This document shows positions 10,801 to 31,122 of a DNA stretch of 64,000 nucleotides, piece after piece. The stretch's first letter is position 1. Each line of letters begins with the position of its first letter. A program made the position numbers and the translations under genes. The notes beneath the pieces were generated by a model. The model was not told the DNA's origin, searched no databases, and saw nothing but the letters and a program-made list of their open reading frames with translations. The stretch covers positions 32,001 through 96,000 of IMG/VR virus record IMGVR_UViG_3300035698_025127; one strand, written 5' to 3'. This stretch comes from a virus.

Positions 10801-12568
10801 TGCTCGTGCAAAACTCATTAATAGTACGCTAAATGGTTTTGCCACAGCAGTAAGCAATAAGATTGTATTAACAAGTCCTACAAAAGGCGTTTCAAGTCAG
10901 CTTCGCGGAGTTATTGATAATACCGCATTAGATTTTTCTGCTATTGTTAGTACACCTGCAACTGGTAGTGGTTATCCCAATCTATCCTTTAAGGTGGATG
11001 GCGGGACTACAAATACTATTGATTTTACTGACTATGCAGGTATTTTGATTGCAGATCAAAGTGCGGCTACTGCTGATGAAGTCGTTGCTTCCATTCTCAG
11101 AGGAACATCTCTAAGTAGCAGTCTTGTCTATACAGACGGCGTTGGTGTTGCAACTACAGTAAATGTCAAGAGTCTTGTTACCGGCACAAGTGGTACCGTG
11201 GAAATTCTGACAGCTAATCAGGCACTGGGTGACGAGTTTGGTATTCAAACTGTTTATACTGGGACCCAAACTGAAGTTGCTGCCGGCGTTGCTTTTGCAG
11301 TAAGTCCTGGTACTTGGGCAAATGCTGACGAGGATGCTCTGAAAATTAAATTTACTGACGAAAATCCGCTGTTCTTTGCGCCTAATACTTCTCGTGTAGA
11401 TATTTATAGTGGTTCTACTATTTTAGCATCATATCGCGAAGTTTCTCCTGATCCTGATGCTGATGGCAGCCATGGAACAACCGGAGAGGGAACATTCATT
11501 GAGGACGAACTTGGTAATAGCAATGACGTTGCCAACGGAACTAATCCTAATCCATATTTCGCGTTTGACCTTGACGAAGATTTAACTACAGACGTCATTG
11601 ATTATAATGGTGGAAAATTTAAGTCTGGAACTTATTCGTTAAGTGGCGGAGCTGATGGTATCAATGAATTAACTGGAAGTGATTTTGTTGGTGTTTCTTA
11701 TGATTCCACATATGGTGGACCTACAGGAATTCAGAATTTTGCTGATAAGCATTCATCATTTATTAACTTCCTGGTTGCCCCAGGCCGTTCAGATAGTGCT
11801 GTTATTCAGTCATTATTCTCTGTAGCTGAAGAACGCGGCGATTGTTTGGCCCTTGTGGATCCGCCTATCTCTCTGAGACCAGAACAAGTAGTGGATTGGC
11901 ACAATGGCCTAGGTTATGGTAATAGTGTGGCATTTAACACAAGTTACGCAGCATTATACGGTACTTGGTTCTATCATAGTGATCCGTATAATAACACGAA
12001 TATTTATTTACCACCTAGTGCATATCTGCTAAAGCAGTATGCATATAGCGATTCCATTTCGGAACCATGGTTTGCAGTAGCAGGTGATACGCGCGGTAAA
12101 GTTACCGGTGCTATTGGGGTTGAATATTCACCAAACGAGGGTGAACGCGACTTAATGTACGGCAATGGAAATGCAGTGAATCCGATTGTTAATTTCGTAC
12201 AAAGCGGAATTAAAATCTGGGGCCAGAAAACCCTTTCACGCACAGAGTCTTCATTGAATCGTATCAATGTGAGGCGTTTATTCTTGTTTGCTCGTAGAAC
12301 CGTAGAATTAGCCTCACAAGTTATATTGTTTGAACCTAATGATGCGTTGACCCGTAAGAAATTGGTGGAAATAATTGAAGGTGCTATGTCCGATATTCTA
12401 TCAAGACGCGGTATTACAAGATTCCAGGTTGAAGACAAGACTGATGCTTTCCTGATTAATCAGAATAGAATCAAGATTGTTGTGTTTGTTGAACCACAAC
12501 AAACTGCTGAATTCATTGAGATTCCGTTTATTGTAACCGGTAGCGGACAAGCATTTATCGAAGGTTAA
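7856..12568 (+). CDS. gp18: Contractile tail sheath protein, gp18-like, with very large insertion
   Basis: N-terminal LSP.V...E.DLS...IAGIVGAASKG; C-terminal PWFA.AG..RG, RDLMY....VNPI, WGQKTL....S.L.RINVRRL, FEPND, AEFI.I.F. Confidence 0.95.
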   Translation: MTTLLSPTVVTSETDLSFVAQSISTSIAGIVGAASKGAVNKRIYLSSQDDVIIKLGKPLLTDYGVQTASLFMKQSSNGWYNRIASLRGNDPVATANTDTRALLTQTSLTAFVAPSDIIALAGGSSQNLRLRFDDTNDITITFTTAIVTSLVRSTMLDTMIALTGWLDGVLSLNGTAEPRYGFTGYTQLGDGSYVLTIQSELKSGLSKIEVMVPTGTDAASYFGWTSGVTSETGTRSIVLNTNLTSAVVTSLAQGVSGYNLGTSATSTSVNSATYNLGVLADGSLDVNNMGASPNAYSFVSVLESNTTTTMNLDSDGIHAQAQAAPYAFNPVVQIVVDGYTTSIEIPLTTWTIGAITNANMQDFATAINTATPSGLGDIAFYNTATKKMYLQSPGKSVGYTYISVPLEQSDTVAGNAAMAIRAMNFLGFDFQDVKVQNQITIETETSSETISFDYTTVHSYGLSPASLTTAQVVSLINAQFGSTIASIDSGLNISLANDYRGIDGFVKASGYQTSKLAIDSTAFDYTSSWYLPSSSPIRLIGAETATAAGLNNTYLKCSFGTDWAIVRINNTTYASDPVAIGSAKLDVEATSFAATPTQINAFKIALAAVLFGHVISSPGDGFVIGEWTVGTLVAAGTELRVYNGGGLTAGRVRVVDSNDNTATTYPASHEGNISYVVTALPAPDTTTVTLRDAGGTNVLTVTSLHDDRELHLYVDNTPALTFAGKTMTGFASSGSYATWLQKSSNTVTGDETAELTIGAGGDLSSVGQLSVSTTDASWALVLDLLFDDGAGTDYSALVAVVPSGTTAFTTSIKGGHSIAVAECPVDVITLAQGNGYDVTWTAGTGSYAYVNTATGTLDFALDALKLNGQDLPSAGAGGKAKGYLIGNADIEYIFRPSTVTPGAYAAQWQNGRITTSRVAYNDITSTFVATARSFFPNDDWGGGYNRFAVVVDDDYTVDIDFNDYTFVDQSAATASETADALNARAKLINSTLNGFATAVSNKIVLTSPTKGVSSQLRGVIDNTALDFSAIVSTPATGSGYPNLSFKVDGGTTNTIDFTDYAGILIADQSAATADEVVASILRGTSLSSSLVYTDGVGVATTVNVKSLVTGTSGTVEILTANQALGDEFGIQTVYTGTQTEVAAGVAFAVSPGTWANADEDALKIKFTDENPLFFAPNTSRVDIYSGSTILASYREVSPDPDADGSHGTTGEGTFIEDELGNSNDVANGTNPNPYFAFDLDEDLTTDVIDYNGGKFKSGTYSLSGGADGINELTGSDFVGVSYDSTYGGPTGIQNFADKHSSFINFLVAPGRSDSAVIQSLFSVAEERGDCLALVDPPISLRPEQVVDWHNGLGYGNSVAFNTSYAALYGTWFYHSDPYNNTNIYLPPSAYLLKQYAYSDSISEPWFAVAGDTRGKVTGAIGVEYSPNEGERDLMYGNGNAVNPIVNFVQSGIKIWGQKTLSRTESSLNRINVRRLFLFARRTVELASQVILFEPNDALTRKKLVEIIEGAMSDILSRRGITRFQVEDKTDAFLINQNRIKIVVFVEPQQTAEFIEIPFIVTGSGQAFIEG

Positions 12569-12580
12569 GGAGAATAAAAC

Positions 12581-13270
12581 ATGGGAATTTTAGGAATAGT
12601 TGGCAATTCGCGAATTGGCAATGAAGTTGATGGCATGGGAAACTATGACGTTAAACGAAATAATATGTGGGAAATGAAACTGGCCCGTTCGTTTGGCTCA
12701 GATGATTTTCGCAATTCCTTTACTCTACAGATGAATAAGGCTGCAAGACCTAATTTCACTTTGGGCGAAGTCGAATTACAAAGGGGTAACGAACGTTGGT
12801 ACGTTGCCTCTAAACCAGTCGCACAGGATTTGGCAGTTTCGTTTTATGACGCTTTACCATCTCAGGGTGTAAGTTATACTTATCAGCGTGAAGGCGTACA
12901 AAGTCCACACCCGGCTGGTAATCCTGATATGCGTAGTGCATCGCAAATATTGTATAACTGGTATTTACTAATATATAATCCGTCTTCTGGGTATATGGGA
13001 TTAGCAAGTGAATATCAAACTAATGCATATATTACGTTATATTCAGGTAGCGGTGAACCTATCGAACGTTGGATGTATCTTGGTTTATGGCCAAGAGAAG
13101 TAAATATGGGCGATTTAGACCATGCCACTGAAGGCGATCCTCTAACAATCGAAGCGACTTTTAGATTTAATAAAGTCTATCGTATTGACCCAGGTACAAC
13201 AGCAGAACCTACAGATGGTGATGCTCAGTTGTTACCAGAAACAGCAGAGAGTTCTTTTAATATCCTCTAA
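12581..13270 (+). CDS. gp19: Tail tube protein, gp19-like
   Basis: Follows sheath; W...IYNP.SG.MG....Y, IERW..LGLWP..VN.GDLD, IEATFRF. Confidence 0.9.
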   Translation: MGILGIVGNSRIGNEVDGMGNYDVKRNNMWEMKLARSFGSDDFRNSFTLQMNKAARPNFTLGEVELQRGNERWYVASKPVAQDLAVSFYDALPSQGVSYTYQREGVQSPHPAGNPDMRSASQILYNWYLLIYNPSSGYMGLASEYQTNAYITLYSGSGEPIERWMYLGLWPREVNMGDLDHATEGDPLTIEATFRFNKVYRIDPGTTAEPTDGDAQLLPETAESSFNIL

Positions 13271-13279
13271 TAACTAATT

Positions 13280-13322
13280 AAGCACAGCACTTAGAAAAAG
13301 TTTAAGTGCTGTGCTTTTCTTT
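13280..13322 (+). terminator. Intrinsic terminator
   Basis: AAGCACAGCACTTA / TAAGTGCTGTGCTT 14-bp stem plus T-rich tail. Confidence 0.85.
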
Positions 13323-13339
13323 GAAACGCGAGTAACAAA

Positions 13340-13639
13340 ATGTCAAAAATAACAGAATTTAGTACATTTTCAGAAAACAAAATTGACGCAAAGACAATTA
13401 GGGCAGTCGGCAATAAGTTGGGTATTAATTGGAATAAAATCCCATTTTCAGAATTTGAAGCGGGATATTATGTAGAATTAGAACACGGATTACAAGACCC
13501 CGAAACAAATGCAACAAATGACGATCCTGTTATGACAGCCAAAATTGCATGGGTTCATCTAAAGGAATTTTCAGACTATTATACTCGTCTCAAGAAAATG
13601 GAACGAGAAGGCAAGGAACAAAAAAATAGGGAACATTAA
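13340..13639 (+). CDS. DUF5661-family protein
   Basis: G..VELEHG...TNDDP..TAKIA..HL.E..DYYTRL.KME signature. Confidence 0.85.
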   Translation: MSKITEFSTFSENKIDAKTIRAVGNKLGINWNKIPFSEFEAGYYVELEHGLQDPETNATNDDPVMTAKIAWVHLKEFSDYYTRLKKMEREGKEQKNREH

Positions 13640-14159
13640 GAATTTTATTAGTGATATAATTAGTGAAGGCAAAAAACCTCGAAAATTTGATGTTGGTGAT
13701 ATTGTTAGAATTAAATTATATGATGATGGCCCACTATCAAAACAACCGCTAGGCAAAGTTTTTAGTATAGTCGGCTATGATAATTATACCGGAAAATGGA
13801 AATATAAAGTAAAAGAACAGGGATCCGGAGTACGTAAAACCTGGTCTGAAAACAATTTAATTTTAGTAAAGAAAGTCAAAGAGGGTGTCAATAAAGTAGC
13901 CGCCCCTAAAGATAAAATCACAAAACAAGTTAAAGATTTAAGTACAAGTTTAGATTATTTTATAAAAAACGAGTTAGTAAAAAATGCAGGCAATCCTTCA
14001 AAATATTATGCAAATATAGCCGATATTTTGGGTATTTTTGTACGTATATTAAAAATAACTAAAGACACAGATATCATAAAACATATTGAAAGTACAATAA
14101 AAATTTTACAAAATCGTAGCGCTTCATATCGCAATCATACTGATACATGGGAATGGTAA
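13626..14159 (+). CDS. Hypothetical protein (177 aa) lacking a canonical start; SH3/KOW-like segment
   Basis: Frame open 13563-14159 (GNIKNFISDIISEGKKPRKFDVGDIVRIK...DTWEW*); AAGGA lies 8 nt before ATA at 13626; absent from ORF track. Confidence 0.65.
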   Translation: MGNIKNFISDIISEGKKPRKFDVGDIVRIKLYDDGPLSKQPLGKVFSIVGYDNYTGKWKYKVKEQGSGVRKTWSENNLILVKKVKEGVNKVAAPKDKITKQVKDLSTSLDYFIKNELVKNAGNPSKYYANIADILGIFVRILKITKDTDIIKHIESTIKILQNRSASYRNHTDTWEW

Positions 14160-14162
14160 AAC

Positions 14163-14191
14163 TTGACAAATATCTAAAAGTATGTTATAGT
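14163..14191 (+). promoter_or_regulatory. Sigma70-type early promoter
   Basis: TTGACA-17 nt-TATAGT with extended -10 TG. Confidence 0.85.
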
Positions 14192-14197
14192 TCTATT

Positions 14198-14480
14198 TAG
14201 GCAACTGTCTTGTTTAAATTTGTTCCTTGTCAGCGATAAGGAGCCTACAAAGGTTTTTCGGTGTACCCGCCCAGCGAAACATCGGTTTTTGTTTTATCAT
14301 GGGTTCGCCAACTTTTCCGTTGTGATAAAATGTAAGTGTCAAAAGGCGTATAACGACACATTTCCTATGTACCACGATGTACAAAAGGAAACAGCCTCGT
14401 CATCGGCGGGGCCAGCCCCACCACGGATAGTATCTGTGGCCCTACCCCCCTTCGTTCGAAAGTTGGGGGGTTTCTTTTTT
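14198..14480 (+). ncRNA. Candidate structured non-coding RNA (unknown family)
   Basis: GC-richer interval between consensus promoter and terminator, tiled by ~8 hairpins; no RBS-supported ORF. Confidence 0.65.
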
Positions 14481-14482
14481 TC
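14444..14482 (+). terminator. Intrinsic terminator closing the putative ncRNA
   Basis: ACCCCCC...GGGGGGT stem then TTCTTTTTTT. Confidence 0.8.
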
Positions 14483-14511
14483 TTGACAAAACGGCCGTCT
14501 TGTGTTACTAT
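14483..14511 (+). promoter_or_regulatory. Sigma70-type early promoter
   Basis: TTGACA-17 nt-TACTAT with extended TG. Confidence 0.75.
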
Positions 14512-14532
14512 ACAACCATAAGGAGATTAGAT

Positions 14533-14994
14533 ATGATTTATTTTGTAATGTTTGTCGTTGCGGCCACGGTACACTTTATAGTAGACTTTTTGTTTCAGAC
14601 ACACGAAACGGCAGTCAACAAGAAACAAAATAATTCGGTGTTATTCAGACATTGCTCATGGTATGCGGTTTGGGTTAGCTTGGCATTTAGTGCGGCCCTT
14701 TTTAAGTTTGGCAATTTATATTATACCGTTGGAGTGGCAGCAGTTTTCGGAGCCCTTTTGATATCCCATTATTACATTGACAACGGGTTTTTAATGATCC
14801 TGTGGGCAAAATATATCCATAAAAATCCACGCTTTGAGGGTGTAAAAAGTATGGATGAAGGTAATAAGGCATTATTCGAAGACTGTCTCGAAAATCCGTT
14901 TAGACCTACAATTTATATCGCCGTAGACCAGATTATGCATATTAGTGTAATCGCAATTATTTCTTTAGTTATATGGGGTATTGCAAATGTCTAA
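14533..14994 (+). CDS. DUF3307-family membrane protein
   Basis: HFIVDFLFQT, H..WY, SHYYID, DQIMH motifs in TM helices; AGGAG RBS. Confidence 0.85.
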   Translation: MIYFVMFVVAATVHFIVDFLFQTHETAVNKKQNNSVLFRHCSWYAVWVSLAFSAALFKFGNLYYTVGVAAVFGALLISHYYIDNGFLMILWAKYIHKNPRFEGVKSMDEGNKALFEDCLENPFRPTIYIAVDQIMHISVIAIISLVIWGIANV

Positions 14995-15448
14995 GGCAGT
15001 GGTAAATGTTGAAGGCAATCTTCAGACAATAGTTCTTCTTGTGCACTTATTGGAATTTTATACTATTGATAATATTATTCCGATAAGAATACCGCAAAGA
15101 AAACGGGAATCAATGTATCTTCAATGGCGGATTTTAGAATCGTTTGGCATTGAAAGCAATGACAAGATTTTGTATATTCGCGATACGATTGACGCATATC
15201 TTAAAGAAAATGAAGATATTGTTACTCCGTTCGATGAGAAACGGCTTGAAACGTTCACTAAAAACGTGACTACAGCGGCTTTGGAAGACATAGCATTGTG
15301 TGAGGACGCAGACATGTATACAGTCGATAATACTGAAATTTTTGGCAGTATGACAGCTAATGAAATAACTGATGAAATGGCAATAAAATATTGTAAAGAC
15401 AAAGTTCCCGAAAAATTAATTACAAAAATTATGGGAGAACCAAAATGA
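14987..15448 (+). CDS. Hypothetical protein
   Basis: Overlapping co-oriented ORF. Confidence 0.7.
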   Translation: MSKAVVNVEGNLQTIVLLVHLLEFYTIDNIIPIRIPQRKRESMYLQWRILESFGIESNDKILYIRDTIDAYLKENEDIVTPFDEKRLETFTKNVTTAALEDIALCEDADMYTVDNTEIFGSMTANEITDEMAIKYCKDKVPEKLITKIMGEPK

Positions 15449-15837
15449 TGGATAAACTTGAAAGTCTTTTAGCGCAACTTGATACTATTGAAGCGAGAAT
15501 GCCGCTTATTGACACTCAGGACGAAGCACAATTTGCCTTTGACTTGACGGACAATCTCATTGAGCAAATTAAAGCTATCATGTCAGGCAAAAATTACTTT
15601 TACGGTAAAATTACAAACAAGACCGATAAGGAATTTGATGCATCCGGTTTCCCGAGTGATGTTGTAAAATGTATTATTGACCCCATGGAGACATATTATT
15701 TCCCGTTTCCCAATTCCGATACTCAAACACTTATTGATACTGCCCGTGGCTATCGTAAACACGGATTTACATGCGAAAAATATACCGGGCGATTTGGTGA
15801 AAACTATTTTATTATAGAATTCGTTGTAAATTCGTAG
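15445..15837 (+). CDS. Hypothetical protein
   Basis: ATGA overlap, GGAG RBS. Confidence 0.7.
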   Translation: MMDKLESLLAQLDTIEARMPLIDTQDEAQFAFDLTDNLIEQIKAIMSGKNYFYGKITNKTDKEFDASGFPSDVVKCIIDPMETYYFPFPNSDTQTLIDTARGYRKHGFTCEKYTGRFGENYFIIEFVVNS

Positions 15838-16460
15838 TTCTCGGCCATAATAGGATCGTTAATGGCCTCCACAATAGGCTTTAAACGAGCCACGATTGCC
15901 TGTAAGGCACTTTTCTGTCTATCAGTAGGTATTCGGCCTAATTGGTACCAGTCTTTGATCCTACCGGTAATATAGATGATATGTTGGTTCGCGTAAATAT
16001 GTTTGTTCATGAGCATTAGGAATCTATATAGCAGGATAATCGAAGCAATAGACTCATTAGATGCGTTTTTCAAGGTAAAGGTGTCTTCATTTAGGATATC
16101 AATTAATTCCTGCTCAATAACAAAGTCATCAATTCTGATACGACTTTTCTTGACAGTTTTAATTTTCTTTACAATACCCCCGCATTCTAATATCGAAGTG
16201 CCGTCTTTTGTATATTCATTTAGGGTAATTAAGGCACGTTTTAGTGTATTATTATTTTTGCACCTTGCCTTTTTGTCGCCATATAAAATAGTATACGAAT
16301 AACTTTTAAGATCGAGCTTAATGTCAAATTCTATAGACCCCGCAACAGAAAAGAGAACCTGAAACTTGTCAGACTGTATTTCAACACTTACAGATACGTT
16401 ATCAAAAATCTTGTTTATGTACTGTACTACTATTTTATATTGCCTAGGCAGTTTTGTCAT
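15804..16460 (-). CDS. Hypothetical protein
   Basis: 218-aa ORF with GGAGG RBS on minus strand. Confidence 0.75.
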   Translation of the reverse strand: MTKLPRQYKIVVQYINKIFDNVSVSVEIQSDKFQVLFSVAGSIEFDIKLDLKSYSYTILYGDKKARCKNNNTLKRALITLNEYTKDGTSILECGGIVKKIKTVKKSRIRIDDFVIEQELIDILNEDTFTLKNASNESIASIILLYRFLMLMNKHIYANQHIIYITGRIKDWYQLGRIPTDRQKSALQAIVARLKPIVEAINDPIMAENYEFTTNSIIK

Positions 16461-16725
16461 TGTTACCTCCCATCAAGTATTTGCTATACGATTCTATTTC
16501 GGCCCGCTTTTCGGGTGTAAAACTGTCAATATCATAAATATTTATTAGTGTTTCAAATATGATAGCGTCTTTTTCTGGCGATTCTGGCATTTTTCTTGTC
16601 AATAAGTATATAGTGTTTATCTGGTTTAGTAGCGCGAATTCATTATTAACAACTTTATTCTCTATATATAGTAGTGTTATAAGCCGTTTTGCAATGTTTA
16701 CGATTGAATGTTGTATGTATGTCAT
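16444..16725 (-). CDS. Hypothetical protein
   Basis: 93-aa ORF, AAGG RBS. Confidence 0.65.
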   Translation of the reverse strand: MTYIQHSIVNIAKRLITLLYIENKVVNNEFALLNQINTIYLLTRKMPESPEKDAIIFETLINIYDIDSFTPEKRAEIESYSKYLMGGNNDKTA

Positions 16726-16802: not shown

Positions 16803-18275
16803 ATGAATGTAAAGCTAATTAAGACACGCCCGAATATTGCAACAATAGCGTCAGCAAAAACATGTTATAACGGTATGATTTACCCAAACAAGATTAAAAA
16901 TTCTGCTAAAACTGATAAATTCGTTGTTTCTTTGCTAAATAGTGGACACCATACGACATTTCAGCATAGCGACCATTATTTTACATTTGCGCTTGAAGGG
17001 ATAAGTAGATATGCTGTATGGTCATTTTTCCATAATTTCGAATACTATAATTCAAGTCAGGAAAGCCAGCGTTATGTATCCATGGCACCGGAAAACAATT
17101 ATGTACCAGAAGGATTAACAAATACACAAAGAAGAATCTGGGACGCAGCACTTGCTGACTCTTTTATTGCATATACAGAATTGACTCGTCTATGTACTGA
17201 CAAAACAAAACAATTATATAGTAAGACTTTTCCGAATAAAGATCAGAAAATTGTTGAAGATAAAGCACACAAAATGGCAATTGAAAACGCTCGGTATATT
17301 TTGCCACAGGCTGTTACAACGTCCATGTATTATACGATAAATTTAGCTACTCTTTTGCGTATGCGCGCAGTAGCTAATACATATGACTGTAAATGGGAAA
17401 TTATACCTATTATAGAAAAAATGTGTGAAGCTGTAATCGCATTTGACGAGAAACTAGCAGTTCTTTTTGGACGTGTAGAAATCGGAGCTTTTTTTGCAGA
17501 CTACGAATATAACAATATAAATGCCAAGCTATTCAAGAAAAATTTCGATGCTCAATTTAATGATAACTACGGCAATGAATTCCAACACTCGAAACTTATC
17601 AGCCATAATGCTTTACCGGCATCGCTAAATATTTTTGATGAAATCTTCGGCATTAAATACGGCTATTCAGAAGTAAAAGATTTATCTCTAAATGTTGACA
17701 ATATGCTTACTGAATCTCGTTTGGGCAGCTTATTAGTATTTACATTCGCAAACCGAAATTCATTATCATGTGATTCTCAAATGCAGCGACATCGCACGAT
17801 AAGTAAAGCAAAGACATTTTTGCCGGATCAAATAGTTACAGATGATATTGATTATGTAGTGCCTATAGTGATCGGGTCAAGAAAAACACTAATAAGTCGA
17901 TATAATAGATTTATGGACAATCAATTGACAAACTATAGATATGCAATTAAAGAAGGGATTGCCCCAGAAATTGCTGCTTACCTTCTTCCTAATGCAACAA
18001 TGACTCGGTCTTTTTCGACAGTAGATTTAAATGGATTTAAGAATCAGGCTAATTTGCGTTTGTGTTTTAATGCACAAAAAGAAATATGGGATTTGACAGC
18101 AGAACAGGCAAAACAAATAAGTAAAGTGGTCCCTGAAATATCACGTGTTTTGCATCCTAAATGCAAGTTAAGAAAAGAAAGCGGTATAACACCGGTATGT
18201 ACAGAAGGTTCAAGATTTTGTGGAACACAGACCTGGAACATAGACGACTTTTACAATCATGAACGGGAGTTTTAA
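16803..18275 (+). CDS. thyX: FAD-dependent thymidylate synthase, tandem two-domain ThyX
   Basis: SGHHTTFQH..FTFALEGISR, SQESQRYV, ARYILPQA; second domain QMQRHRT, AAYLLPNA, LRLCFNAQKEI. Confidence 0.9.
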   Translation: MNVKLIKTRPNIATIASAKTCYNGMIYPNKIKNSAKTDKFVVSLLNSGHHTTFQHSDHYFTFALEGISRYAVWSFFHNFEYYNSSQESQRYVSMAPENNYVPEGLTNTQRRIWDAALADSFIAYTELTRLCTDKTKQLYSKTFPNKDQKIVEDKAHKMAIENARYILPQAVTTSMYYTINLATLLRMRAVANTYDCKWEIIPIIEKMCEAVIAFDEKLAVLFGRVEIGAFFADYEYNNINAKLFKKNFDAQFNDNYGNEFQHSKLISHNALPASLNIFDEIFGIKYGYSEVKDLSLNVDNMLTESRLGSLLVFTFANRNSLSCDSQMQRHRTISKAKTFLPDQIVTDDIDYVVPIVIGSRKTLISRYNRFMDNQLTNYRYAIKEGIAPEIAAYLLPNATMTRSFSTVDLNGFKNQANLRLCFNAQKEIWDLTAEQAKQISKVVPEISRVLHPKCKLRKESGITPVCTEGSRFCGTQTWNIDDFYNHEREF

Positions 18276-30054: not shown

Positions 30055-31122
30055 ATGACTCATGGCGTAGATATCAAAAAATTACTTGCAAACGCGGAAA
30101 ACATGAAAAATGGCGGCGGGTTTAATAGTAATTTTTGGAGCCCTAAAGAGGCCAAAACAACTATTAGAATTATCCCGCCTAATCCTGAAATTCAAGGTAT
30201 GCTCCCGGGCGTGTTCTTTGTAAAACACAATGAACATAATATCAATGGCCAACGTATTGGTTGTGCTGCCGAAATTCTTCAGGAAGATTGTCCTATTTGC
30301 ACGAAACGAATCGAAATTTACCGCGAACGTAAAGGCAATCCTGCAAGCTGTACCCCCGAGAGAGAGCAGTTTCTCGCTGCAACTCACAGTTCAAGACGTT
30401 TTCTTGCCTTAGTTATTGTTAAAGGCGAAGAAGACAAGGGTGTACAAATTTGGAGTTTCGGCAAGAAAATGTTAGACAAGTTGCTTTCATTTTATGTTGA
30501 TTTCTGTGCTGATGGCGATGATGAATTGTCAGACATGGACAATGGTCGTGATATTATTATCAACAAGACGATTATTCATACTGAAAACGGAAATTTCCCC
30601 AACTATGATAATTCCATTCCGTCTCCGAAATTAACGGCAGCCGGCACCCCCGAAATGATTGCAAAATGGTGGACAGAACAACCTAAATTGTTAGAAATTG
30701 CTTCTGCAAACATTAAGTCCTATTCTGAAGTTGCGCAGATTGCAGAACAACTCATGGAATCATTTGAGAGAAAGGCCCCACAAGCTCCACAAACGCCTCA
30801 GGCGTTACAGAGCTATGCTGCCCCTACCGCTAGTACTCCTGGCACCCCGCAATCAACTGTGGGCGGCCCCCCGGAACTTAGTATTGCTGGTGTACTGGGT
30901 GAGATTGATCTATCTAGCCCCGAAGCACTCATTGCTTTTCAGGGATGGCAAAAAAATGGCAATAACGATTTACAGTTATTGTTAGAAGTTGCCAATTCTT
31001 ATCCTAAACCTGGTACAACAGCCGCAGCAGCGCCTCAAAAGCCAGCGGAAAAAGTACAGACAGAAATTTATGATGATCCCGAAGCATTGTTAGCTAAAAT
31101 TCAAAACGAATTAGATGAATAA
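30055..31122 (+). CDS. Single-stranded DNA-binding protein, gp32-like
   Basis: FW.P.....IRIIPP, H....C...CPIC Zn site, VQIWSFGKK..DKL, GRDIII, NYD.S, acidic tail. Confidence 0.88.
   Translation: MTHGVDIKKLLANAENMKNGGGFNSNFWSPKEAKTTIRIIPPNPEIQGMLPGVFFVKHNEHNINGQRIGCAAEILQEDCPICTKRIEIYRERKGNPASCTPEREQFLAATHSSRRFLALVIVKGEEDKGVQIWSFGKKMLDKLLSFYVDFCADGDDELSDMDNGRDIIINKTIIHTENGNFPNYDNSIPSPKLTAAGTPEMIAKWWTEQPKLLEIASANIKSYSEVAQIAEQLMESFERKAPQAPQTPQALQSYAAPTASTPGTPQSTVGGPPELSIAGVLGEIDLSSPEALIAFQGWQKNGNNDLQLLLEVANSYPKPGTTAAAAPQKPAEKVQTEIYDDPEALLAKIQNELDE

What the first reader, a model, noticed from the sequence alone, without database searches (positions are those of the whole stretch)
14163..14482. 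Candidate novel ~280-nt structured phage RNA with its own promoter, terminator and possible loop-loop pseudoknot
Seen: a consensus extended sigma70 promoter, then a GC-richer stretch tiled with stems: GTTCCTTGTC/GATAAGGAGC, CGGTGT/ACATCG, TTTTATCAT/GTGATAAAA, GTGTC/GACAC, TTTCCT-TGTAC/GTACA-AGGAAA, GCCTCGTC/GGCGGGGC, CCACGGATA/TATCTGTGG, and a terminator CCCCCC/GGGGGG+T. The loop CGCC-aac-TTTT (~14306-14316) is complementary to the next loop AAAAGGCG (14341-14348). CAGC recurs four times in loops and linkers. A second promoter restarts transcription immediately after, so this is a self-contained unit, not a leader for DUF3307. It does not match tRNA, tmRNA, RNase P or SRP by eye. Inference: an independent early ncRNA (ribozyme, protein sponge/decoy, or anti-defence RNA).
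Basis: partly seen in the sequence, partly recalled or inferred. Interest (0 to 1): 0.78.

Follow-up and report, generated by a model that had tools for sequence, protein, structure and literature searches.

The report
Orphan early non-coding RNA unit in phage
A gene-free stretch of about 285 bases in an uncultivated giant phage from a salt lake has its own strong start and stop signals and so probably makes a non-coding RNA, but only its last third folds unusually well, no relative exists to test the fold, and its job is unknown.

Summary
A near-consensus extended -10 promoter lies at 14163-14191 (11 of 12, TG). It is followed by about 285 nt with no credible ORF, a 7-bp G+C hairpin plus U-run at 14444-14482, and a second promoter at 14483-14511. 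This is the only one of 18 promoters of the phage's own family with no gene behind it. The 88-codon ORF has non-coding codon usage and no true protein relatives.

The "tiled" fold is only half supported. The 3' 122 nt fold far better than shuffles (z -3.98), but the 5' 162 nt do not (z -0.88). Two stems have probability about 0.2. The loop-loop pseudoknot and the CAGC recurrence are within chance. Genome-wide, the fold ranks 14th of 840 windows.

No Rfam, tRNA or tmRNA match was found. No paralogue or homologue turned up in any collection searched, so covariation cannot be tested.

Verdict: a probable stand-alone early phage ncRNA of unknown function, a new orphan member of a known kind. The scan has reported similar orphan promoter-to-terminator phage units on other DNA, but not this sequence.

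The parts
14163..14191 (+). Promoter P1: TTGACA, 17-nt spacer ending TATGT (TRTGn extended -10), TATAGT. Predicted start near 14198-14200.
   Evidence: 11 of 12, TG. Member of a family of 18 such promoters in the 119,932-nt record.
14199..14482 (+). Predicted non-coding transcript, about 273-284 nt, G+C 0.47.
   Evidence: No SD-preceded ORF. The 88-codon TTG ORF scores -0.083, like wrong frames.
14222..14244 (+). 5' hairpin: 10 bp (2 G-U), triloop AGC. The 3' arm contains AAGGAG.
   Evidence: p 0.97, -11.2 kcal/mol.
14245..14335 (+). Central A+U-rich part with no well-determined fold.
14336..14359 (+). Hairpin GUGUC/GACAC with a 14-nt loop.
   Evidence: p 0.85.
14361..14391 (+). Hairpin UUUCCU-A-UGUAC / GUACA-AA-AGGAAA.
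   Evidence: p 0.90 and 0.98.
14394..14412 (+). Hairpin GCCUCGUC/GGCGGGGC: 8 bp (2 G-U), triloop AUC.
   Evidence: p 0.94, -11.3 kcal/mol.
14421..14439 (+). Hairpin CCACGGAU/AUCUGUGG: 8 bp (1 G-U), triloop AGU.
   Evidence: p 0.96.
14444..14482 (+). Intrinsic terminator: ACCCCCC/GGGGGGU with a 14-nt loop, then UUUCUUUUUUUC. It works on the + strand only.
   Evidence: p 0.98, -15.6 kcal/mol.
14483..14511 (+). Promoter P2 of the next unit (boundary, not part of the RNA). Its spacer holds the palindrome 14486-14503.
14533..14994 (+). DUF3307 gene with AAGGAG 7 nt upstream (neighbour, not part of the RNA).
   Evidence: PF11750, E 5.1e-10.

Best explanation
This is a stand-alone gene for a non-coding RNA of about 275-285 nt in an uncultivated jumbo-type myovirus.

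Proposed steps, all inferred from sequence unless marked:
- Host sigma70/sigmaA-type RNA polymerase starts at P1 (14163-14191), early in infection.
- It stops at the hairpin plus U-run at 14444-14482.
- The next gene (DUF3307) has its own promoter.

The RNA has two parts. The 5' part is about 160 nt, A+U-rich and loosely folded, with one strong 10-bp hairpin. The 3' part is about 120 nt and G+C-rich, with three tight hairpins plus the terminator hairpin.

Most likely working (inferred, not shown): an abundant early trans-acting RNA. The 3' hairpin array and the 5' hairpin would protect it from exonucleases. The open central part (14245-14360) would be the surface that pairs with a host or phage RNA, or binds and titrates a protein.

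Shown here: promoter, terminator, lack of coding capacity, strand-specific hairpins and G+C enrichment. Not shown: expression, ends, fold of the 5' part, any target.
For: - P1 is the strongest promoter match in the 4-kb region (11 of 12 + TG). It belongs to the phage's own family of 18 TTGACA-N12-TRTGn-TAnnnT promoters. Seventeen of these are followed within 0-183 nt by an ORF of 109 aa or more. Only P1 is not.
- The terminator hairpin has -15.6 kcal/mol and p 0.98, with a U-run on the + strand only.
- The 88-codon ORF scores -0.083 by codon usage. Wrong frames average -0.089, and in-frame chunks average 0.253 +/- 0.114. Only 0.6% of 328 in-frame chunks score as low.
- The ORF has no SD and no Pfam hit.
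- An exhaustive HMMER search of 1.84 billion proteins gave 3 hits. The two aligned (P0006, P0007) are summed 21-41-residue matches to repeat proteins of 1662 and 753 aa; the third, P0008 (937 aa, 6 matched stretches), was not aligned.
- G+C is 0.47, against a median of 0.33 for intergenic regions. This is the criterion used to find structured ncRNAs in A+T-rich genomes (PMC6429828, PMC8723152; abstracts only).
- The 3' 122 nt have z -3.98 (1 of 200 shuffles). The whole RNA has z -3.25 on the + strand and -2.37 on the - strand.
- A strand-neutral hairpin search finds 6 G-U against 1 A-C mismatch (5 to 1 once a nested alternative is removed). The genome-wide count is 898 to 871. This favours an RNA of the + strand over a DNA palindrome.
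- The locus is single copy.
Against: - There is no expression evidence of any kind.
- No homologue was found, so there is no covariation and no evidence of selection on the fold.
- The two nearest phages with a 52-53% identical tail tube carry a different 322-338-aa gene at this place. Neither has DUF5661, DUF3307 or a look-alike RNA.
- The 5' 162 nt are no more stable than shuffles.
- The composition-corrected fold energy ranks only 14th of 840 windows, and coding windows rank above it.
- Thirty-two of 422 windows have as many simple hairpins.
- The G-U bias rests on 6 pairs.
- No terminator separates the upstream gene (stop at 14159) from this stretch. It is therefore also the 3' untranslated tail of that gene's transcript.
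Confidence: 0.5

Rival explanations
1. A cis-acting element, not a trans-acting RNA. Transcripts from P1, and from the gene upstream, normally end at the 14444-14482 terminator. This would resemble the short terminated transcript of lambda pR'-tR'. A phage factor, or the RNA itself (as in lambda nut or HK022 put, both recalled), would let polymerase read through into DUF3307 and the early or replication genes. Alternatively, the stretch is simply the structured 3' tail and terminator of the DUF5661 operon.
For: - No terminator lies between the stop at 14159 and 14444.
- An 8-nt perfect complement, CCAACTTT (14308-14315) / AAAGTTGG (14459-14466), could open the 3' arm of the terminator (I12).
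- A U-rich segment plus a hairpin directly follows the start, which resembles boxA plus hairpin (resemblance recalled, not tested).
Against: - P2 is a good promoter only 21 nt before the DUF3307 start, so that gene needs no read-through.
- One 8-nt complement within 285 nt is about what chance gives. My estimate is about 0.6 expected, and the best inter-segment duplex is reached by 228 of 300 shuffles.
- No antiterminator protein was identified.
- No Rfam cis-regulatory family matches.
Confidence: 0.2
2. No RNA-level function. This would be a spacer between two promoters, for example G+C-richer DNA picked up by recombination together with a promoter cassette. Its hairpins would be chance, or would only serve to terminate transcription.
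For: - It is an orphan and is absent from the nearest relatives.
- The 35 nt of P1 recur with 1 other letter and 2 indels in other contigs of four runs with different flanks. The promoter therefore moves or is duplicated as a cassette.
- CTTGACAAA stands at both ends, exactly 320 nt apart (D2).
- The 5' half is not unusually folded.
- The fold rank in the genome is modest.
Against: - The genome is about 89% coding. A near-consensus promoter plus a strong terminator around 285 nt of useless DNA would be costly.
- The 3' domain has z -3.98.
- The G-U bias favours the transcribed strand.
- The sequence is identical in the contigs laid from all four runs, with no differing letter or indel reported inside the RNA body.
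Confidence: 0.17
3. It encodes one or more small proteins: the 88-codon TTG ORF at 14220-14486, a 32-codon TTG ORF at 14227-14325, or a 24-codon GTG ORF I read by eye at 14262.
For: The frame 14178-14486 is open. AAGGAG is present at 14236-14241.
Against: - Codon score is -0.083, like wrong frames.
- No start codon lies 5-12 nt after any SD, and AAGGAG is buried in the 10-bp hairpin (p 0.97).
- There is no Pfam hit. The representative search gave only 3 hits to long proteins (753-1662 aa); the two aligned are repeat artefacts.
Confidence: 0.05
4. A DNA-level or primer element. This would be a replication origin at the head of the replication module, in which the P1 transcript forms a persistent hybrid and primes synthesis (as at T4 oriF/oriG or ColE1 RNA II; recalled). 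Alternatively, it is a protein-binding site array.
For: - It lies at the boundary between tail genes and the nucleotide and replication genes (ThyX at 16803).
- Two strong tandem promoters are present.
- The transcript has G6 and C6 runs.
Against: - Cumulative G-C skew shows no turn at this place.
- No iterons or repeats were found.
- G-U pairs outnumber A-C pairs, which argues for RNA rather than DNA hairpins.
- The stretch is G+C-rich, not an A+T-rich unwinding element.
Confidence: 0.06

Closest known systems
Stand-alone non-coding RNAs of virulent and jumbo phages mapped by transcript-end sequencing (phiKZ dRNA-seq, PMC8244752; ONT-cappable-seq of Pseudomonas phages, PMC10914365, PMC11512511). 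I saw search listings and abstract starts only.
   Same: A phage-borne unit with its own promoter and intrinsic terminator, no ORF, and early timing implied by a host-type promoter.
   Different: Those RNAs are defined by measured transcript ends, whereas this one is defined by sequence signals only. There is no sequence or Rfam relation. At about 280 nt it is longer than most described phage sRNAs.
Orphan promoter-to-terminator non-coding units reported earlier by this scan in other uncultivated phages (e1-5829002, e1-5999782, e1-5912396).
   Same: Same anatomy and the same limits: phage-type promoter, terminator, no ORF, no relatives, and a claimed elaborate fold that goes no further than chance.
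   Different: Different DNA; no shared words with this stretch. Those notes are unchecked AI reports.
phi29 prohead RNA (pRNA), recalled from knowledge.
   Same: A structured phage RNA of 170-odd nt made from an early host-type promoter.
   Different: No Rfam match to any family. The loop-loop complement here is within chance. This phage is a contractile-tailed jumbo type, not phi29-like.
Short terminated leader transcripts and polymerase-modifying RNAs of lambdoid phages (lambda pR'-tR' '6S' transcript, nut sites, HK022 put), recalled from knowledge.
   Same: A strong promoter, about 200-300 nt without a gene, a terminator, then genes.
   Different: Here a second full promoter follows the terminator. 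No antiterminator gene or put-like two-hairpin match was identified or tested.
G+C-rich intergenic regions as carriers of structured ncRNAs in A+T-rich genomes (Stav et al. 2019, PMC6429828; DIMPL, PMC8723152; Narunsky et al. 2024, PMC11109978). Abstracts only.
   Same: A long intergenic region (373 nt) with G+C 0.43-0.47 in a 0.367 genome meets that selection criterion.
   Different: Those pipelines then require homologues and covariation, and none are available here.

Membership tests
Any Rfam 15 family (4227 models, including 6S, SRP, RNase P, tmRNA, pRNA, GOLLD, ROOL, EGFOA, ToxI) | Covariance-model score at or above the family's gathering score | tested here: not met
   There were 0 matches over the 64-kb window. 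At E up to 10 only msiK appeared (15.8 bits against 33, on the minus strand), plus PhrS inside the DUF3307 start.
tRNA / tmRNA | Cloverleaf or tRNA-like domain found by ARAGORN | tested here: not met
   0 genes in the window and 0 in the whole 119,932-nt record.
Stand-alone bacterial or phage sRNA/ncRNA gene (generic kind) | Own promoter | tested here: met
   Scores 11 of 12 with TG and belongs to the phage's 18-member promoter family. This is a sequence signal only.
Stand-alone bacterial or phage sRNA/ncRNA gene (generic kind) | Own intrinsic terminator on the same strand | tested here: met
   7-bp G+C hairpin (-15.6 kcal/mol) plus a U-run, with no T-run on the other strand.
Stand-alone bacterial or phage sRNA/ncRNA gene (generic kind) | No protein-coding capacity | tested here: met
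   Codon score -0.083, no SD plus start, and no true protein relatives.
Stand-alone bacterial or phage sRNA/ncRNA gene (generic kind) | A discrete transcript is observed | not testable with these tools
   No run on record as RNA holds the stretch. The four runs that were laid are DNA contigs.
Structured RNA family (conserved fold) | Homologues with compensatory base changes | not testable with these tools
   No homologue was found in the phage records, IMG/VR, JGI metagenome contigs, GTDB contigs, the phage's own genome or two related records.
Structured RNA family (conserved fold) | Fold more stable than composition predicts | tested here: inconclusive
   The 3' 122 nt have z -3.98 and the 5' 162 nt z -0.88. 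The whole RNA ranks 14th of 840 genome windows.
phi29-type pRNA | Complementary loops for ring formation beyond chance | tested here: not met
   358 of 2000 shuffled loop pairs pair as well. One 'loop' is mostly paired in the ensemble.
Type III antitoxin RNA (ToxI-like) | Tandem direct repeats of about 34-36 nt | tested here: not met
   The only direct repeats are a 12-nt two-copy match at 83% and the two -35 regions.
nut/put-type antitermination leader | Promoter-proximal RNA element that makes polymerase resist downstream terminators | not testable with these tools
   Only the layout (promoter, hairpin, terminator) can be seen. The boxA likeness is recalled and was not tested.

The most novel reading that the evidence does not exclude
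The unit is the first seen member of a new class of abundant early jumbo-phage RNAs that act on the host rather than on phage messages. One form would be a nuclease-resistant decoy that titrates a host RNA-binding protein or a defence sensor. The other would be a put-like RNA that modifies host polymerase at the switch from structural to replication genes. The evidence does not exclude either form: there is a strong early promoter, a protected 3' hairpin array, an open 160-nt central part, and no antisense target longer than 13 nt in the phage's own 120 kb.
Probability: 0.1. Interest if true: 0.7.

Novelty: new member of a known kind. Interest (0 to 1): 0.3.

Why it matters
If a discrete RNA is made, it adds an unclassified non-coding gene to a very poorly sampled jumbo-phage lineage. 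The nearest cultured relatives share only 24-30% identity in the tail tube. It would also give a concrete, short construct for testing what early phage RNAs do to a host. As it stands it is one orphan sequence with no relatives and no expression data. Its main value is as a catalogued candidate to revisit when closer genomes or metatranscriptomes of this lake appear. The scan has met several such orphan phage units. Together they may be worth a joint search for shared architecture, more than any single one.

Tried and rejected
HOMOLOGUE SEARCHES WITH NO RESULT
- blastn of 14100-14560 against 50,697 phage records: no match.
- Exact-pattern scans of IMG/VR with five RNA pieces. The 14421-14439 hairpin gave 0 loci. 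The 14301-14318 loop gave 0. The 14222-14244 hairpin with its 7 central positions set to N gave 18 loci, none extending past 24-32 nt. The 14394-14412 hairpin gave 3 loci, seed only. The terminator gave 0.
- The same loop pattern in GTDB genome contigs: 36 loci across many phyla, about what chance gives by my estimate. The longest extension was 39 nt at 79%.
- Neighbour-gene anchors. DUF3307 has only itself in the 5.8-billion-protein set, 1 of 26 candidates, and no locus in IMG/VR. The upstream 172-aa frame: none of 73 candidates scored. The tail tube has 4 proteins at 100, 76, 53 and 52% identity.
- The 76% tail-tube relative sits on a 1,051-nt contig that I could not fetch.
- The 52-53% relatives (L002-L005) have a different gene after the tube.
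- BLAST of the RNA and covariance model R1 of the 3' domain against their full records G001 and G002 found only the query itself in G000. L005's record was not held, so it was not searched.
- No paralogue in the phage's own genome.
- Earlier-findings look-ups by place, relatives and sequence showed no look-alike on other DNA.

EXPRESSION
- No RNA holder is listed among the 24 runs, all salt-lake metagenome DNA.
- Laying X3, X6, X7 and X9 gave only contigs identical to the window, with no variants inside the RNA. There is therefore no micro-diversity to test pairing.

REJECTED READINGS
- Loop-loop pseudoknot and CAGC motif: within chance.
- Small protein.
- Replication origin by skew.
- Mobile element with terminal repeats: only the shared CTTGACAAA of the two -35 regions.
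- CsrA-type sponge: by eye only 3 GGA, and all lie in stems.

FAILED OR FLAWED CALLS
- One search had wrong coordinates and was corrected.
- One search used a mis-spaced promoter regex. It was corrected and tightened.
- Searches hit the script time limit. One search was redone more coarsely. One search, a genome-wide duplex scan for targets, was dropped; only the blastn-short result stands for targets.
- Searches use a crude home-made gene finder. Several of its 'gaps' are real genes. The intergenic statistics are therefore rough.
- Supplements of papers were not opened.
- All cited papers were seen as search listings and abstract starts only.
- Knowledge of phi29 pRNA, lambda 6S/nut, HK022 put, ColE1/T4 origins and boxA is recalled.

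Full report
WHERE IT LIES

The window is bases 32001-96000 of a 119,932-nt linear IMG/VR virus record, with a CheckV completeness estimate of 55%. All 24 public runs that hold the stretch are labelled salt-lake metagenomes.

Upstream lie a 1570-aa tail sheath, a 229-aa tail tube and a strong terminator at 13280-13316. Next comes a DUF5661 gene (13340-13639), followed by a start-less but clearly coding frame running to 14159. Downstream lie a DUF3307 gene (14533-14994), small genes and ThyX. The nearest cultured phages share only 24-30% identity in the tail tube: Bacillus SP-15, vB_BceM-HSE3 and Ralstonia RsoM2USA.

THE OBSERVATION

The promoter at 14163-14191 is real as a sequence signal. It reads TTGACA, a 17-nt spacer ending TATGT, then TATAGT, scoring 11 of 12 with the TG extension. 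That is the best of 20 promoter-like sites in 12500-16500, where shuffles give 15.3 +/- 4.4.

It belongs to a family. With the pattern TTGA[CA]A-N11-13-N[AG]TGN-TAnnnT, the record has 18 copies (wider listings). Seventeen are followed within 0-183 nt by an ORF of 109 aa or more. The copy at 14163 is followed only by the 88-codon TTG ORF. The second promoter (14483-14511, 10 of 12 + TG) sits 21 nt before the DUF3307 ATG, which has AAGGAG 7 nt upstream.

The terminator is a 7-bp hairpin, ACCCCCC/GGGGGGU, with -15.6 kcal/mol and pair probability 0.98. UUUCUUUUUUUC follows it. The reverse strand has no T-run. The simple scan missed it because its loop is 14 nt.

G+C is 0.47 in 14199-14482, against 0.29 and 0.37 in the flanking genes, 0.367 for the genome and a median of 0.33 for intergenic regions.

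IS IT CODING?

No.
- The 88-codon ORF scores -0.083 on a codon-usage log-odds trained on this phage's long genes. Wrong frames average -0.089 +/- 0.138 (n = 1640).
- Real frames average 0.253 +/- 0.114 (n = 328). Only 0.6% of real chunks score as low.
- The neighbouring genes score 0.15-0.33.
- The ORF has no SD. The one AAGGAG (14236-14241) is buried in a 10-bp hairpin and has no start codon at the right distance.
- Pfam finds nothing.
- An exhaustive HMMER search of 1.84 billion representatives gave three hits at E up to 0.001, all to proteins of 753-1662 aa with 5-7 matched stretches. Pairwise alignment of the first two shows a 21- or 41-residue weak match repeated along internally repetitive proteins, not homology. 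The third hit was not aligned.

HOW STRUCTURED IS IT?

Less than claimed.
- The whole transcript folds at -90.7 kcal/mol, z -3.25 against its own dinucleotide shuffles (1 of 200). The reverse strand gives z -2.37.
- Split in two, the 3' 122 nt give z -3.98 (1 of 200), with one dominant structure (frequency 0.215). The 5' 162 nt give z -0.88 (42 of 200).
- Well supported by pair probability are the hairpins at 14222-14244, 14336-14359, 14361-14391, 14394-14412, 14421-14439 and the terminator (0.85-0.98).
They compete with another fold in which CGCC 14306-14309 is paired.
- Against the genome, the fold energy corrected for composition ranks 14th of 840 windows of 285 nt (z -2.35). Coding windows rank higher.
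- Windows with four or more strong local hairpins are 14 of 1260 on the + strand. Simple hairpin counts as high occur in 32 of 422 windows.
- A strand-neutral hairpin search finds 6 G-U against 1 A-C mismatch, where the genome gives 898 to 871. This mildly favours an RNA of the + strand.
- The proposed loop-loop pseudoknot is matched by 358 of 2000 shuffled loop pairs, and CAGC is not an outlying 4-mer.

IS IT KNOWN, AND DOES IT HAVE RELATIVES?

- Rfam 15 gives nothing at gathering scores over the whole window. Only noise appears at E up to 10 on 701 and 294 bases.
- ARAGORN finds no tRNA or tmRNA in the window or in the whole record.
- The phage's own genome has no second copy. The longest other match is 13 nt.
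- No match turned up in the phage collection. None came from IMG/VR with five pattern scans. None came from GTDB contigs. Every seed hit failed to extend.
- The flanking genes are as isolated as the RNA.
- The only reachable kin, with a tail tube 52-53% identical, have a different 322-338-aa gene after the tube. They show no match to the RNA by BLAST or by a covariance model of the 3' domain.
- Contigs of four other runs are identical across the RNA.

Covariation is therefore untestable here.

WHAT IT MOST LIKELY IS

This genome is roughly 89% coding. Within it sit a near-consensus promoter, a strong one-way terminator, a G+C-enriched gene-free body and a separate promoter for the next gene. 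These are best explained by a stand-alone early non-coding RNA gene (confidence 0.5).

Its anatomy is a loosely folded, A+U-rich 5' and central part behind one strong hairpin, then three tight G+C hairpins and the terminator. This suggests a stable trans-acting RNA whose open middle is the working surface. That step is inference.

Rivals, with my confidence:
- A terminated leader or 3' tail with possible read-through control (0.2). No terminator separates it from the upstream gene, and an 8-nt complement to the terminator exists, but that complement is within chance and P2 makes read-through unnecessary.
- Functionless spacer acquired with a promoter cassette (0.17). The 35 nt of P1 recur elsewhere with other flanks.
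- Small protein (0.05).
- Origin or primer element (0.06). There is no skew turn.

COMPARISON AND NOVELTY

It works like the stand-alone ncRNAs mapped in virulent and jumbo phages (PMC8244752, PMC10914365, PMC11512511; abstracts only). It also meets the G+C-rich intergenic criterion for structured RNAs (PMC6429828, PMC8723152; abstracts only). It is a member of no described family.

The scan has reported the same kind of orphan unit in other uncultivated phages, but on different DNA. I rate it a new orphan member of a known kind, with interest 0.3.

Noticed in passing
window 13340-14159: The DUF5661 ORF (13340-13639) overlaps a 198-codon frame (13563-14159). That frame has no ATG, GTG or TTG until 14028. 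An A7 run lies in the overlap, near 13620-13626. The start-less frame has gene-like codon usage (0.30), no Pfam hit and no homologue. It is a +1 shift, an unusual start or a homopolymer error. Earlier notes e1-6151186 and e1-6151195 say the same.
   Followed up: partly
whole record; window 14163, 14483, 22611, 45079, 50615(-), 51658(-), 61926(-), 62342(-), 63868(-): A family of host-type promoters, TTGACA-N12-TRTGn-TAnnnT, often with TATAGT. There are 18 copies in 120 kb. The TRTG extended -10 is typical of Firmicutes-type sigmaA promoters (recalled), which may hint at the host.
   Followed up: partly
window 50615(-), 62342(-), 63868(-); genome 112184(+): Several of these promoters are followed within about 10-25 nt by a shared box close to GATTGATTGACAAAC. 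It contains a second TTGACA. It could be a tandem promoter or an operator.
   Followed up: no
window 14486-14503: An 18-nt imperfect palindrome, ACAAAACGGCCGTCTTGT, lies in the spacer of promoter P2 (I7). It is operator-like, so the DUF3307 promoter may be repressible. GTCTTGT also occurs at +9 of the P1 transcript (14208-14214).
   Followed up: no
window 14157-14191; runs X3, X6, X7, X9: The 35 nt of promoter P1 recur with 1 other letter and 2 indels in other contigs. Those contigs have different flanks on both sides and similar depth. This is a twin promoter, either in the unassembled half of this phage or in a co-occurring relative.
   Followed up: no
whole record (119,932 nt): No tRNA or tmRNA gene was found anywhere in this part of a jumbo-size phage.
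   Followed up: yes
L003 946-6687; L005 506-2258: The two nearest phages keep the giant sheath (1594 aa in L003) and the tube. They follow the tube with a conserved 322-338-aa gene that is absent from this position in the window.
   Followed up: no
window 30700-31120: This is the densest cluster of strong local hairpins on the + strand (6 per 285 nt). It lies inside a 387-aa ORF, so coding sequence can match the hairpin density of the candidate RNA.
   Followed up: partly
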